From Chloroflexota bacterium (GTDB lineage: Bacteria > Chloroflexota > Limnocylindria > Limnocylindrales > CSP1-4), in NCBI GenBank assembly GCA_025351245.1, contig JANXWH010000133.1, positions 1,450 to 65,449 of the forward strand: a stretch of DNA of 64,000 nucleotides. The letters are read 5' to 3'. A program made the translations under genes and the position numbers. Below, piece after piece: positions 9,199-11,778 of the stretch. The notes under the pieces are model-generated. The model had not been told where the DNA came from and ran no database searches. It saw only the letters and a list, made by a program, of their open reading frames with translations. How positions within the stretch are numbered: position 1 is the stretch's first letter; every line of letters begins with the position of its first letter.

Positions 9199-11778
9199 TC
9201 AGCCCTTGGCGAGGTGACGCTGCATGGCGGCCTTGCGGGACAGGTTGACCCGGCCCTGGCGGTCGACTTCAGTGACGACCACCATCACCTCGTCGCCCAC
9301 CGAAACCACGTCCTCGACGGAGGGGACGTGGTAGTCGGCCAGCTCGCCGATGCGGACGAGGCCTTCCTTGCCCGGGAGGATCTCCACGAAGGCGCCGAAG
9401 GTCATGAGGCGGGTCACGGTACCCAGGTAGAGGGCGCCGATCTCGACCTCGCGGGTGAGGGACTCGATCCAGTGGATGGCCTTGCGGGCATTCTCGCCCT
9501 GCACGGCCGCGATCTCGACGGTGCCGTCATCCTCGACGTTGATCTCCGTCCCCGTCTCCTCCTGGATCTTCCGGATCATGGAGCCGCCCTTGCCGATGAT
9601 GTCGCGGATCTTCTCCGGGTTGATCTTGATCTTCGTGATGCGCGGCGCGAAGTCGCTCATCGTGTCGCGGGCGGAGGGCAGGACCTCGAGCATCTTGTCG
9701 AGGATGGTCATCCGCGCGGCGTGGGCCTTCTCGAGCCCCTGCCGGATGATCGCCTCGCTGATGCCGGTCACCTTGATGTCCATCTGGAGGGCGGTGATGC
9801 CATCCCGGGTGCCGGTGACCTTGAAGTCCATGTCCCCGAAGGCATCCTCCTTGCCGAGGATGTCGGTCAGGACGGTGAACGTCCCGTCCTTCTCCGACAT
9901 GAGGCCCATCGCCGCGCCGGCGACCGGCGCCGAGATCGGCACGCCGGCATCCATGAGCGCGAGGGTGGAGCCGCAGGTGGCCGCCATGGAGGTGGAGCCG
10001 TTGGACGTCACGCACTCCGAGACGAGGCGGATGACGTACGGGAACTCGTCCGAGCTGGGGAGCACGGGCAGGAGCGCCCGCTCCGCGAGGTGGCCGTGAC
10101 CGATCTCGCGCCGGCCGGGGCCGCGCATCATCTTGTTCTCGCCGGTGCTGTACGGCGGCATGTTGTAGTGGTGGATGAAGCGCTTCTCGGTCTCGGGGCT
10201 GATGGTGTCGATCCGCTGGACGTCCGAGGACGGGCCGAGCGTCGCGATCGTGAGGGCCTGCGTCTCACCGCGCGTGAAGAGGCCGGAGCCGTGCGCTCGC
10301 GGGAGGACACCGACCTCGACAGTGATCGTCCGGATCTCGTCGACGCCGCGCCCGTCCATGCGGATCCCCTCGGACAGGGTCAGCGTTCGAGCGGTCTTCT
10401 TGTGAACGAGCCCGAAGAGGGCCTTCGAGACGCGCGCCGTGCGGCGGGCCGCCTCCAGCTTCGCCTTCGCCTCGTCCTTCGACGTACGGTTGGTGCGGAT
10501 GGAGTCGGCGATCCCGGCCGAGAGCGTCTCGAGACGCGCCGGCAGCTCCGCGGCGATCGCCAGGAGCAGGGCGGCCGTCGCCTCGGCGTCCGGGAGGGCG
10601 CGGTGCGCCTGCTTCAGCTCGATGCCAAAGAAGCGCGAGAGCTCGCCCAGCGTGTAGCTGGGGAGGTCCGGGTAGCCGTCGCGGGCGAGCGTGAGCGTGT
10701 CGAGGTAGGTGCCCGGACGGATGCGCGTCCCGTCGGCGAGCGCCGCCTCCAGGAACGCGATGTCGAAGCCGACGGAGTGGCCCACGAGGGTCGCCTCGCC
10801 GATGAATGCGAGCGCCTGCTTGGCTGCTTCGACAGGGCTGGGCGCGCCGGCGACGTCCTTGTCCGTGATCCCGTGCATCTGGTTGCCGAAGATCGGCCGG
10901 CCCGGACTGACGAACGTGGACCAGCGGTCGACGACCTTGCCGCCCTTCACGCGAACGGCGGCCATCTCGATGAGGTCCGCCATCTCCGCGTGGGTGCCGG
11001 TCGTCTCGACGTCCAGCACGACGAACTCGGCGCCCGCCTTCGCTTTCGCGGCGAAGTCGAGGACCGAGCCGGTGCCGGCCTCCAGGAACGGGATCCGCTT
11101 CGTCTTGCCGACGGCCTCCTGGAGCTGGAGCTGGAGATCGATGAGCGGCTGGAGCGCACGGTGGCCGAACAGGATCGCCTCGGCCATCACGGACTCGGGG
11201 AGGATCTTCGCGCCGGCCTCCACCATCATGATCGCCTCGCGGGTGCCCGACACGATGAGGTCGAGATCGGACTCGGCGAGCTGCGGCATGGTGGGGTTGA
11301 TCACGAGCTCGCCGTCGATCCGGCCGATTCGGACTGCGCCGATGGGGCCGAGGAACGGGATCTCGCTGATCGTCAGCGCGGCGGACGCGGCGACGGTGCC
11401 GAGGACGTCCGGGTTGTTCTCCTGGTCCGTGGAGAGGACGGTGAGGACGACCTGCACGTCGTCCTTGTAGCCCTCCGGGAAGAGCGGCCGGATCGGCCGG
11501 TCCGTCAGGCGGGCGGCGAGGATCGCGGCCTCAGAGGGGCGCGATTCGCGCTTGATGAAGCCGCCGGGAATCTTGCCGGCCGCGTACATCCGCTCCTCGA
11601 AATCCACCGTGAGCGGGAAGAAGTCCAGGCCCGGGCGCGGCTCGGATCGGTTGGCGGTGCCGAGCACCACGGTGTCACCGTACGTGATGGTGACGGACCC
11701 GCCGGCAAGGCGGGCGAGCTTGCCTGTCTCGATGGTCAGGGGGCGTCCGCCGAATTCGACGGAAAAGGTGAGGGACAC
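9199..11778 (-). CDS. pnp: Polynucleotide phosphorylase (PNPase) with an inserted DEDDh (DnaQ-like) exonuclease domain
   Basis: Carries both RNase PH-like domains (...[14 protein letters not shown]...; ...[22 protein letters not shown]...), plus KH and S1 domains. It is 859 aa instead of about 700. The extra roughly 165 aa (residues about 250-415) contain exo motifs [16 protein letters not shown] and [14 protein letters not shown]. The GTG start at 11778 has the SD AAAGGAA. Confidence 0.95.
   Translation of the reverse strand: [859 protein letters not shown]

What the first reader, a model, noticed from the sequence alone, without database searches (positions are those of the whole stretch)
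10536..11031. PNPase carrying an inserted DnaQ-like DEDDh 3'-5' exonuclease domain
The pnp product is 859 aa. After the first RNase PH-like domain (...[28 protein letters not shown]...), the alpha-helical linker is interrupted by about 165 aa. This segment has all three exonuclease motifs in the correct order and spacing: Exo I [9 protein letters not shown], Exo II [13 protein letters not shown], and Exo III [14 protein letters not shown] (the His-type, DEDDh). The canonical second PH domain, KH and S1 domains then resume (...[39 protein letters not shown]...). The polypeptide would therefore combine a phosphorolytic and a hydrolytic 3'-5' exonuclease active site. I am not aware of this architecture in characterised PNPases.
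Basis: seen in the sequence. Interest (0 to 1): 0.72.

Follow-up and report, generated by a model that had tools for sequence, protein, structure and literature searches.

The report
PNPase with built-in DEDDh exonuclease
The housekeeping RNA-degrading enzyme PNPase of an uncultured Chloroflexota class (Candidatus Limnocylindria) carries a second, intact, proofreading-type hydrolytic 3'-5' exonuclease domain spliced into its helical domain; the fusion is real, conserved and apparently undescribed, and it puts two different RNA-trimming chemistries in one protein.

Summary
The ORF at 9199..11778 (-) encodes an 859 aa PNPase (TIGR03591, 937 bits). PF00929 matches residues 253-405 (E 8.6e-27) between the two RNase PH halves.

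It is not a misassembly. More than 220 distinct 90%-identity clusters, on contigs of up to 2 Mb, and 15 GTDB species-representative genomes carry the same ~860 aa protein at the same rpsO-pnp locus. All appear to be Ca. Limnocylindria, from freshwater Limnocylindrus to soil Limnocylindrales.

- **Active sites:** the DEDDh residues (D256, E258, D339, H392, D397) and the PH2 phosphorolysis motifs are invariant.
- **Selection:** the insert is under purifying selection (dN/dS 0.33, against 0.16-0.19 for the core).
- **Fold:** a confident model (pLDDT 92) shows an epsilon/PolC/DinG-like domain. Its last helix continues into the retained part of the PNPase all-alpha domain, so the exonuclease interrupts that domain and does not replace it.
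- **Prior knowledge:** no solved PNPase and no searchable paper shows this architecture. Databases call the protein either "PNPase" or "Pol III epsilon family exonuclease".

Best reading: a bifunctional 3'-5' exonuclease, phosphorolytic plus Mg-dependent hydrolytic. Activity, substrate (RNA or DNA) and any cooperation between the two sites are inferred, not shown. I class it as a new variant of a known kind.

The parts
9199..11778 (-). pnp gene: 859 aa PNPase carrying the inserted exonuclease domain (GTG start; the end coordinate range includes the stop codon)
   Evidence: ORF. TIGR03591 936.8 bits, cutoff 525. Pfam domain set.
11113..11778 (-). First RNase PH-like module (PH1 plus PH_C), residues 1-222
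   Evidence: Pfam RNase_PH and RNase_PH_C, with RNase_PH_C at residues 144-208. Aligns to 5yjj residues 19-238.
11032..11112 (-). Linker and first helix of the all-alpha domain (residues 223-249; helix 237-247), immediately before the insert
   Evidence: Secondary structure of the AF2 models. dN/dS about 0.6.
10536..11031 (-). Inserted DnaQ-like DEDDh 3'-5' exonuclease domain (residues 250-414; Pfam PF00929 at residues 253-405)
   Evidence: PF00929 E 8.6e-27. PolC exo domain E 1.5e-24. AF2 pLDDT 92. Foldseek hits to DinG, PolC, epsilon and RNase T.
10996..11022 (-). Exo I motif VVLDVETTG (catalytic D256 and E258)
   Evidence: D256 and E258 invariant in 121 of 121 homologs and in all in-frame GTDB loci.
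10750..10788 (-). Exo II motif [13 protein letters not shown] (catalytic D339)
   Evidence: D339 invariant in 121 of 121.
10564..10605 (-). Exo III motif [14 protein letters not shown] (H392 and D397, the His-type DEDDh signature)
   Evidence: H392 and D397 invariant in 121 of 121.
10369..10548 (-). Retained C-terminal part of the PNPase all-alpha domain (residues 411-470). It comprises the distal half of the long helix 394-429 plus helices 434-448 and 452-470, and carries a conserved basic motif LEAARRxARVSKxLF..HKKT.R
   Evidence: AF2 models. PF03726 profile positions 29-80 match here in relatives P0306 and P0369; the match is sub-threshold in the window protein. Invariant R446, R449, K452, K460 and R464.
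9664..10368 (-). Second RNase PH-like module (PH2 plus PH_C), the phosphorolytic site (residues 471-705)
   Evidence: Pfam RNase_PH at residues 481-614. Motifs [15 protein letters not shown] and GDMDFKV are conserved; one RREIGHG position is at least 90% conserved rather than strictly invariant among the 121 sequences.
9454..9663 (-). KH domain (residues 706-775)
   Evidence: Pfam KH_1 at residues 715-772.
9199..9453 (-). S1 domain (residues 776-859) and the stop codon
   Evidence: Pfam S1 at residues 778-849.
11883..12152 (-). rpsO (ribosomal protein S15) immediately upstream, which marks this as the canonical rpsO-pnp locus
   Evidence: tblastn with the L001 rpsO, 91% identity. The same adjacency holds in all 15 GTDB loci.

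Best explanation
This is the orthologous, housekeeping PNPase of Candidatus Limnocylindria (Chloroflexota). An ancestor of the class acquired an epsilon/PolC/DinG-type DEDDh 3'-5' exonuclease domain inside the all-alpha domain, after its first helix. In solved PNPases the all-alpha domain lies next to the PH2 phosphorolytic site, at the end of the barrel opposite the KH/S1 entry pore. The protein therefore most likely works as a bifunctional 3'-5' exonuclease. The PH2 site removes nucleotides by phosphorolysis, which is reversible and depends on phosphate. The tethered DEDDh site removes them by two-metal hydrolysis, which is irreversible and independent of phosphate, and there would be three such sites per trimer. 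The hydrolytic site would act on 3' ends or short limit products that the phosphorolytic site handles poorly or releases.

Shown here: the architecture, the insertion point, intact and invariant catalytic residues in both sites, purifying selection on the insert, a confident DEDDh fold, restriction to one clade, and conserved synteny. Inferred: that the DEDDh site is enzymatically active, that its substrate is RNA, and that the two sites cooperate.
For: - **Domain identity:** Pfam and NCBIfam calls.
- **Catalytic residues:** the DEDDh residues are invariant in 121 of 121 sequences, and the PH2 motifs are conserved to invariant or near-invariant. Every in-frame GTDB locus keeps the DEDDh residues.
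- **Selection:** dN/dS is 0.33 for the insert, 0.16-0.19 for the PNPase domains, and 0.5-0.6 for the flanking helices.
- **Recurrence:** all 120 listed clusters in each of two searches carry PF00929 (more than 220 distinct clusters in all) and are ~860 aa, on contigs of up to 2 Mb. Fifteen GTDB species representatives have the same junction.
- **Locus:** all have rpsO directly upstream, and where enough flank is held most share the wider DHH-truB-ribF-rpsO-pnp-asd-UDG-RNase J synteny.
- **Structure:** the model of residues 225-478 has pLDDT 92 and pTM 0.88. The Exo III helix continues into the alpha bundle. Foldseek matches DinG exo, PolC exo (38% identity, rmsd 2.4 A), epsilon and RNase T.
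- **Insertion point:** PF03726 positions 29-80 are retained after the insert.
- **Composition:** there is no GC discontinuity across the insert.
- **Position of the alpha domain:** in human PNPase it contacts the RNA at the active site, and the KH pore is at the opposite end (PMC12685370).
Against: - No biochemical data exist. Activity and substrate are inferred from sequence.
- All the closest relatives of the insert are DNA-processing modules: PolC proofreader, DinG, exo-GIY-YIG, FAN1-like VRR-NUC-exo and exo-BRCT. B. subtilis DinG exo prefers ssDNA and cuts ssRNA only with Mn2+ (PMC12525004).
- A DHH/DHHA1 (NrnA-like) candidate nanoRNase is encoded in the same gene cluster. This weakens the specific idea that the insert is needed to clear limit oligonucleotides.
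- The full-length model is of low confidence in PH2 and S1, and the tools return no coordinates. The distance and orientation of the DEDDh site relative to the PH2 site and the trimer could not be measured.
- Whether these genomes also encode a second, canonical pnp was not testable.
Confidence: 0.7

Rival explanations
1. The inserted exonuclease works on DNA, not RNA. The fusion would then equip PNPase for 3' ssDNA end processing in repair or recombination, or for removing the RNA strand of R-loops, rather than for bulk RNA decay.
For: The nearest relatives of the insert are DNA-repair or replication exonuclease modules: PolC exo E 1.5e-24 and DinG exo, the PRK07883 exo-GIY-YIG family, and exo-exo-BRCT, exo-GIY-YIG-UVR, exo-DinG and FAN1-like VRR-NUC-exo proteins. 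[quoted passage not shown] From my own knowledge, not tested here: bacterial PNPases have been implicated in DNA repair in B. subtilis and mycobacteria.
Against: The domain sits inside an enzyme whose KH, S1 and PH machinery is highly conserved and at the canonical rpsO-pnp locus. DEDDh enzymes of this fold often accept both RNA and DNA; RNase T is among the structural matches. Nothing in the neighbourhood links the gene specifically to repair.
Confidence: 0.17
2. The insert is a dedicated nanoRNase, functionally like oligoribonuclease. It would hydrolyse the 2-5 nt limit oligonucleotides that PNPase releases at the alpha-domain face, so that decay to mononucleotides is completed within one protein.
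For: The DEDDh fold is shared with Orn-type enzymes through PF00929. The insert lies in the alpha domain, next to the PH2 site where products leave. NanoRNases are generally needed to clear 2-5 nt fragments (abstract of PMC10570053).
Against: The insert is epsilon/PolC/DinG-like, and no oligoribonuclease model appears among the 25 best NCBIfam families. A DHH/DHHA1 NrnA-like gene lies in the same conserved cluster in the window and in relatives, so a nanoRNase candidate is already present.
Confidence: 0.2
3. The exonuclease domain is catalytically silent. It would serve only as a structural, RNA-binding or protein-docking module, for example a degradosome-like interaction platform.
For: Its constraint is weaker than that on the PNPase core (dN/dS 0.33 against 0.16-0.19). 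Inactivated DEDD domains exist in other proteins (my own knowledge).
Against: All five catalytic residues are invariant in 121 of 121 sequences and across the most divergent branch, which is 54% identical at the junction. That pattern is what an active site is expected to show.
Confidence: 0.05
4. The architecture is an artefact: an assembly chimera, or a recent selfish (intein-like or mobile) insertion.
For: All members come from metagenome-assembled genomes. Several database 'representatives' are frameshifted long-read assemblies (P0131, P0138 and P0161; L016).
Against: The same in-frame junction is found in hundreds of independent assemblies from NCBI, ENA, JGI and Logan, on contigs of up to 2 Mb, and in 15 species representatives with conserved synteny. 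There are no intein or homing-endonuclease domains, no composition break, and the insert is under purifying selection.
Confidence: 0.01

Closest known systems
Canonical bacterial PNPase (E. coli, C. crescentus, S. antibioticus, Staphylococcus; e.g. PDB 3GCM, 4AIM, 1E3P, 5YJJ)
   Same: The PH1 - all-alpha - PH2 - KH - S1 order, the PH2 phosphorolysis motifs and the rpsO-pnp locus. It passes the TIGR03591 equivalog cutoff.
   Different: About 157 extra residues form a complete DEDDh exonuclease domain inside the all-alpha domain. No solved PNPase (549-784 aa chains) covers query residues 224-393.
PolC proofreading exonuclease domain (PDB 9QPC, 2P1J)
   Same: It is the closest solved relative of the insert (E 1.5e-24, ~38% identity, rmsd 2.4 A), with the same DEDDh motifs. 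From my own knowledge: in PolC this domain is also an insertion within another domain of a nucleotidyl-transfer enzyme, next to the site that holds the 3' end.
   Different: The host enzyme is a DNA polymerase, not a PH-ring phosphorylase. The PolC whole-protein model is not met (127 bits against a cutoff of 873).
DinG N-terminal DEDD exonuclease (S. aureus 8ZEF/9II8; B. subtilis DinG)
   Same: Top Foldseek match and a strong sequence match. It is another example of this exonuclease module fused to a nucleic-acid enzyme, and it has exo(ribo)nuclease activity on RNA-DNA hybrids (PMC12525004).
   Different: It is N-terminal rather than inserted, its partner is a helicase, and its role is in DNA and R-loop metabolism. 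The DinG family cutoff is not met (125 bits against 789).
Eukaryotic RNA exosome core with Rrp6, and the C. crescentus degradosome with RNase D
   Same: The concept is the same: a PH-domain ring with an S1/KH cap combined with a DEDD-superfamily hydrolytic 3'-5' exonuclease. The Caulobacter degradosome recruits RNase D alongside PNPase (PMC4245959, listed). The exosome comparison is from my own knowledge.
   Different: There the DEDD enzyme is a separate DEDDy (RNase D family) polypeptide bound non-covalently, and the eukaryotic PH ring is catalytically inert. Here the domain is DEDDh and covalently inserted, and the PH2 site appears intact.
Mitochondrial PNPase plus REXO2 (oligoribonuclease) two-step decay
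   Same: A PNPase followed by a DEDDh exonuclease that clears short products. Human PNPase yields oligonucleotide products (PMC12685370). The role of REXO2 is from my own knowledge.
   Different: These are two separate proteins. REXO2/Orn is a distinct DEDDh subfamily, and the insert here is epsilon/PolC-like.

Membership tests
Polynucleotide phosphorylase (TIGR03591 / PRK11824) | The whole protein scores above the curated equivalog cutoff | tested here: met
   TIGR03591 936.8 bits against 525. NF008805 932.7 bits against 471. The match is in two stretches that skip the insert.
Polynucleotide phosphorylase (TIGR03591 / PRK11824) | Two tandem RNase PH-like domains followed by KH and S1 | tested here: met
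   Pfam RNase_PH in two stretches, RNase_PH_C in two stretches, KH_1 at 715-772 and S1 at 778-849. Foldseek on the full model hits PNPases with TM-score (normalised to target) up to 0.8.
Polynucleotide phosphorylase (TIGR03591 / PRK11824) | Intact PH2 phosphate- and metal-binding motifs (R-R-x-x-x-H, G-S-[ST]-S-M-A, D...D-M-D-F-K) | tested here: met
   RREIGHG 556-562, SNGSTSMA 592-599 and [10 protein letters not shown] 644-653 are present. The key residues are invariant across the family, apart from one RREIGHG position that is at least 90% conserved. The assignment of function to these motifs rests on PMC12685370 and on my own knowledge of E. coli PNPase.
Polynucleotide phosphorylase (TIGR03591 / PRK11824) | An all-alpha domain (PF03726) between PH1 and PH2 | tested here: inconclusive
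   The window protein scores 15.9 bits, below the 24.6 cutoff, and only profile positions 48-80 match. Relatives P0306 and P0369 pass, at 25.3 and 25.4 bits, with the match C-terminal to the insert. The AF2 models show the helices. The domain is retained but split and divergent.
Polynucleotide phosphorylase (TIGR03591 / PRK11824) | Homotrimeric ring with a central channel | not testable with these tools
   Only monomer prediction is offered, and no coordinates are returned.
DEDDh (DnaQ-like) 3'-5' exonuclease superfamily, PF00929 | Pfam domain above the gathering score | tested here: met
   95.1 bits against 24, full-length match to profile positions 1-164.
DEDDh (DnaQ-like) 3'-5' exonuclease superfamily, PF00929 | Exo I D-x-E, Exo II D and Exo III H-x4-D in order | tested here: met
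   D256/E258, D339 and H392/D397 are invariant in 121 of 121 sequences. They align in register with the PolC and DinG exo motifs.
DEDDh (DnaQ-like) 3'-5' exonuclease superfamily, PF00929 | RNase H-like alpha/beta fold | tested here: met
   AF2 segment model with pLDDT 92. Foldseek matches PolC exo, the DnaQ domain, epsilon (rmsd 2.3-2.6 A), DinG exo and RNase T.
DEDDh (DnaQ-like) 3'-5' exonuclease superfamily, PF00929 | Divalent-metal-dependent 3'-5' exonuclease activity | not testable with these tools
   Requires biochemistry.
DNA polymerase III epsilon subunit (DnaQ proper) | An equivalog-level match and a stand-alone subunit architecture | tested here: not met
   Only the generic domain model TIGR00573 is marginally passed (73.7 bits against 71.5), which explains the JGI name. 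The equivalog models fail: TIGR01406 scores 69.8 against 222.7, and NF004964 scores 76.8 against 236. The domain is embedded in a PNPase.
PolC / DinG / PRK07883 exonuclease-fusion families | The whole-protein curated cutoff | tested here: not met
   PolC 126.7 bits against 873, DinG 124.9 against 789, PRK07883.1-4 151.2 against 495. Only the exonuclease module is shared.
Rrp6 / RNase D (DEDDy) exosome-associated exonucleases | Tyr-type Exo III motif, with PF01612 and HRDC domains | tested here: not met
   Exo III is His-type (H392). Pfam reports no PF01612 or HRDC hit. This is a functional analogy only.

The most novel reading that the evidence does not exclude
A single-polypeptide bacterial 'mini-exosome' in which the RNA 3' end is shuttled between the reversible, phosphate-dependent PH2 site and an adjacent proofreading-type hydrolytic site, much as a DNA polymerase switches a primer end between its pol and exo sites. 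This would make PNPase-driven decay, and the trimming of PNPase-made tails, irreversible and independent of the Pi/NDP ratio. It could be an adaptation of oligotrophic, phosphate-poor freshwater and soil Limnocylindria.
Probability: 0.3. Interest if true: 0.78.

Novelty: new variant of a known kind. Interest (0 to 1): 0.62.

Why it matters
PNPase is one of the best-studied RNA-decay enzymes, and its five-domain architecture is treated as universal from bacteria to organelles. Here an entire, environmentally abundant bacterial class has a housekeeping PNPase with a second, chemically different 3'-5' nuclease site built into the domain beside its active site.

If both sites are active, this is a covalent bacterial counterpart of the PH-ring plus DEDD-exonuclease pairing seen in the eukaryotic exosome and in the Caulobacter degradosome. 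It also gives a tractable system for three questions:
- How is a 3' end partitioned between phosphorolysis and hydrolysis?
- What does the poorly understood alpha-helical domain do?
- Does phosphate availability shape the RNA-decay machinery?

There is also a practical point about annotation. The same protein is named "PNPase" by NCBI and "DNA polymerase III epsilon subunit family exonuclease" by JGI, and neither name conveys the fusion.

Tried and rejected
- **Misassembly or chimera:** rejected because the junction recurs in hundreds of independent assemblies and in 15 species representatives with conserved synteny.
- **A wider or independent occurrence of the fusion:** the Coriobacteriia loci with extended matches (L031, L040) turned out to be DinG-type exonuclease-helicases. 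Long hits in the representative library were exo-exo-BRCT, exo-GIY-YIG-UVR, exo-DinG or FAN1-like VRR-NUC-exo proteins. No PNPase fusion was found outside the Limnocylindria-like family.
- **Odd taxonomic labels (Verrucomicrobiia, Polarisedimenticolia, Anaerolineaceae, Patescibacteria):** these loci have the same synteny, 66-71% GC and 73-80% PNPase identity, so mis-binning is the likely cause.
- **The apparent D256A/E258A variant in L016:** this is a frameshifted assembly read in the wrong frame.
- **Sequence search of the post-insert helices alone against the PDB:** no significant match. The remnant of the alpha domain was instead shown with PF03726 in relatives and with the AF2 models.
- **Full-length AF2 model:** too shallow an alignment gave low confidence in PH2 and S1, so it was used only for topology and a PNPase fold match.
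- **Tool limits:** the afdb50 fold library was unavailable. The window protein's own contig was not indexed for gene context.
- **Whole-window scans:** Rfam and tRNA scans found nothing.
- **Literature:** seven searches found no description of a PNPase-DEDD fusion.
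Full report
**1. Observation**

The minus-strand ORF at 9199..11778 encodes 859 aa. It contains the three quoted motifs: VVLDVETTG at residue 253, [13 protein letters not shown] at 331 and [14 protein letters not shown] at 392.

Pfam finds two RNase_PH matches (the second at 481-614), two RNase_PH_C matches (the first at 144-208), RNase_T/PF00929 at 253-405 (E 8.6e-27, a full-length match to the profile), KH_1 at 715-772 and S1 at 778-849. 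NCBIfam scores the protein as PNPase (TIGR03591 936.8 bits against a cutoff of 525) in two stretches that skip the insert. The best models for the insert are DEDD exonuclease, PolC-exo and DinG-exo models.

Every solved PNPase aligns in two blocks. For 5yjj these are query 4-223 and query 456-852. The ~75 aa alpha-domain segment of that chain corresponds to 232 aa here, a net gain of ~157 aa.

**2. The architecture is not an artefact and not a one-off**

A search of 5.8 billion proteins returned 120 listed clusters at 80-95% identity. All are ~859 aa and all carry PF00929. They come from NCBI, ENA and JGI assemblies, including contigs of 0.2-2 Mb.

The window's exact sequence is on record (NCBI, 76.8 kb contig). 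Its 90% cluster has 171 members, named Candidatus Limnocylindrales where a name is given.

I then searched 1.84 billion 50%-identity representatives with residues 215-480. Only 52 clusters reached E <= 1e-30. The PNPase-type hits among them are one family, many of them fragments or frameshifted copies. The most divergent full-length member is P0124 (864 aa, 54% identity across the junction). P0124's neighbourhood is Candidatus Limnocylindrus, and all 120 listed proteins in that search, P0124 included, also carry PF00929.

In the GTDB species-representative genomes, 15 loci match the whole junction. The other 65 loci returned match only the exonuclease core. Those I inspected are DinG-type proteins.

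All 15 loci have rpsO immediately upstream. Where enough flank is held, most share the DHH-truB-ribF-rpsO-pnp-asd-UDG-RNase J order, and their GC content is 66-71%. This includes the three loci with non-Chloroflexota or Anaerolineaceae labels, which are therefore probably mis-binned.

The window has the same order on the minus strand and only one pnp in its 64 kb. GC content shows no break across the insert.

Conclusion: this is the orthologous pnp of a class-level lineage, and the fusion is old.

**3. Anatomy**

A model of residues 225-478 is confident (pLDDT 92, pTM 0.88). In order along the chain it shows:
- helix 237-247;
- a compact alpha/beta domain at 252-393;
- the Exo III helix, which continues as a single 36-residue helix (394-429);
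- two further helices (434-448 and 452-470), followed by PH2.

Foldseek matches this model to the S. aureus DinG exonuclease domain, PolC exo (38% identity, rmsd 2.4 A over 168 columns), a DnaQ domain, E. coli epsilon (rmsd 2.6 A), RNase T, ExoX, ExoI and TREX2.

The PNPase all-alpha domain model PF03726 matches only after the insert. In relative P0306, profile positions 29-80 match residues 414-475 at 25.3 bits, above the cutoff. In the window protein, positions 48-80 match at 15.9 bits, below the cutoff. The exonuclease therefore interrupts the all-alpha domain after its first helix and does not replace it. The retained helices carry an invariant basic motif (R446, R449, K452, K460, R464).

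The full-length model is weak in PH2 and S1 because the alignment is shallow. It still matches PNPase structures, with a TM-score normalised to target of up to 0.8.

**4. Evidence that both sites are functional**

D256, E258, D339, H392 and D397 are invariant in 121 of 121 sequences and in every in-frame GTDB locus. The single exception, L016, is a frameshifted assembly.

The PH2 motifs [15 protein letters not shown] and [10 protein letters not shown] are conserved to invariant or near-invariant. One RREIGHG position is at least 90% conserved rather than strictly invariant. These motifs correspond to the phosphate-coordinating Arg, His and Ser residues described for human PNPase (PMC12685370) and to the metal-binding Asp residues of E. 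coli PNPase (my own knowledge).

Nei-Gojobori dN/dS over 12 full-length genes was as follows:

| Region | dN/dS |
|---|---|
| PH1 | 0.17 |
| PH2 | 0.19 |
| KH-S1 | 0.16 |
| DEDDh insert | 0.33 |
| Flanking helical segments | 0.5-0.6 |

The insert is under clear purifying selection. It is more constrained than the alpha domain that hosts it.

**5. Mechanism**

Shown: one polypeptide contains an intact phosphorolytic site and an intact two-metal hydrolytic DEDDh site. The DEDDh site is grafted into the domain that, in solved PNPases, lies next to the RNA 3' end at the active site and at the opposite end of the barrel from the KH pore (PMC12685370).

Inferred: the enzyme is a bifunctional 3'-5' exonuclease, and a trimer would carry three extra hydrolytic sites on the alpha-domain face. 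Hydrolysis is irreversible and needs no phosphate. It could therefore act on 3' ends or limit products that phosphorolysis leaves behind, or drive net decay when the Pi/NDP ratio favours PNPase's synthetic reaction. The fact that the closest homolog is the proofreading domain of PolC makes shuttling of a 3' end between two adjacent sites an attractive model, but it is untested.

Rivals:
- **A DNA-directed role.** All close relatives of the insert are DNA-processing modules. [quoted passage not shown]
- **A dedicated nanoRNase role.** This is weakened by the NrnA-like DHH gene in the same cluster and by the insert being epsilon-like rather than Orn-like.
- **A catalytically silent module.** This is disfavoured by the invariant catalytic residues.

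**6. Comparison with what is known**

The protein is a member of the PNPase family. The only defining feature left inconclusive is the all-alpha domain, which is split and divergent. The insert is a member of the DEDDh/PF00929 superfamily. It is not a DnaQ, PolC, DinG or Rrp6 family member.

Functionally it resembles PH-ring plus DEDD-exonuclease pairings that are non-covalent elsewhere: the exosome with Rrp6, the Caulobacter degradosome with RNase D (PMC4245959, listed), and mitochondrial PNPase with REXO2.

No solved structure and none of seven full-text searches shows a PNPase with an inserted exonuclease. Database names are inconsistent.

**7. Verdict**

The feature is real, conserved and clade-defining. 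It is a new variant of a known kind, with an undescribed domain architecture, and its function is inferred from sequence only.

The main open points are enzymatic activity and substrate, the geometry within the trimer, and whether a second, canonical pnp exists in these genomes. None of these could be tested with the tools available. Interest: 0.62.

Noticed in passing
window 14189-15196 (-); L001 1715-2740: A DHH/DHHA1 (NrnA-like candidate nanoRNase) gene sits between rbfA and truB, in the same conserved infB-rbfA-DHH-truB-ribF-rpsO-pnp cluster. It is conserved in most related loci. It bears on whether the PNPase insert is needed to clear short oligonucleotides.
   Followed up: partly
window 5634-7289 (-): An RNase J gene (93% identical to the L001 copy) lies three genes downstream of pnp, after asd and a UDG-family gene. 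This order is conserved across the Limnocylindria loci, so two major RNA-decay enzymes are kept close together.
   Followed up: partly
window 11843-11878 (-), within the rpsO-pnp intergenic region 11779-11882: A GC-rich hairpin followed by a U run sits between rpsO and pnp. The whole 126 nt leader folds at -66.5 kcal/mol (z -2.6). This could be an rpsO terminator or attenuator, or a pnp leader processing site like the one in E. coli. Conservation was not examined.
   Followed up: partly
L001 4614-5480 compared with window ~12194-12284: The relative L001 has an oppositely oriented glycosyltransferase family 2 gene inserted between ribF and rpsO. The window lacks it and has only a ~90 nt gap there.
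   Followed up: no
P0131, P0138, P0161; L016: Several 50%-identity 'representative' proteins and one GTDB locus are frameshifted versions of the same gene, probably from long-read assembly errors. They inflate the apparent number of distinct clusters, and in L016 they produced a spurious loss of Exo I residues.
   Followed up: yes
L004, L013, L015; P0055: Contigs labelled Anaerolineaceae, Verrucomicrobiia, Polarisedimenticolia and Patescibacteria carry the Limnocylindria-type fused pnp. L004, L013 and L015 also have the same synteny and GC content. These are most likely binning errors in public MAGs.
   Followed up: partly
P0178, P0182, P0196; P0144, P0156, P0160; P0150: The nearest non-PNPase relatives of the insert include unusual architectures: FAN1-HTH plus VRR-NUC plus a C-terminal DEDDh domain (~720 aa), tandem DEDDh-DEDDh-BRCT proteins, and a triple-DEDDh plus GIY-YIG plus UVR protein (1045 aa). 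Their taxonomy and function were not examined.
   Followed up: no
window 1-64000: No tRNA genes and no Rfam family at gathering score were found anywhere in the 64 kb window.
   Followed up: yes
window 11883-12194 (-): The mechanical ORF for rpsO starts at a TTG and gives 103 aa. The homolog in L001 is 89 aa, so the true start is probably at about 12152.
   Followed up: partly
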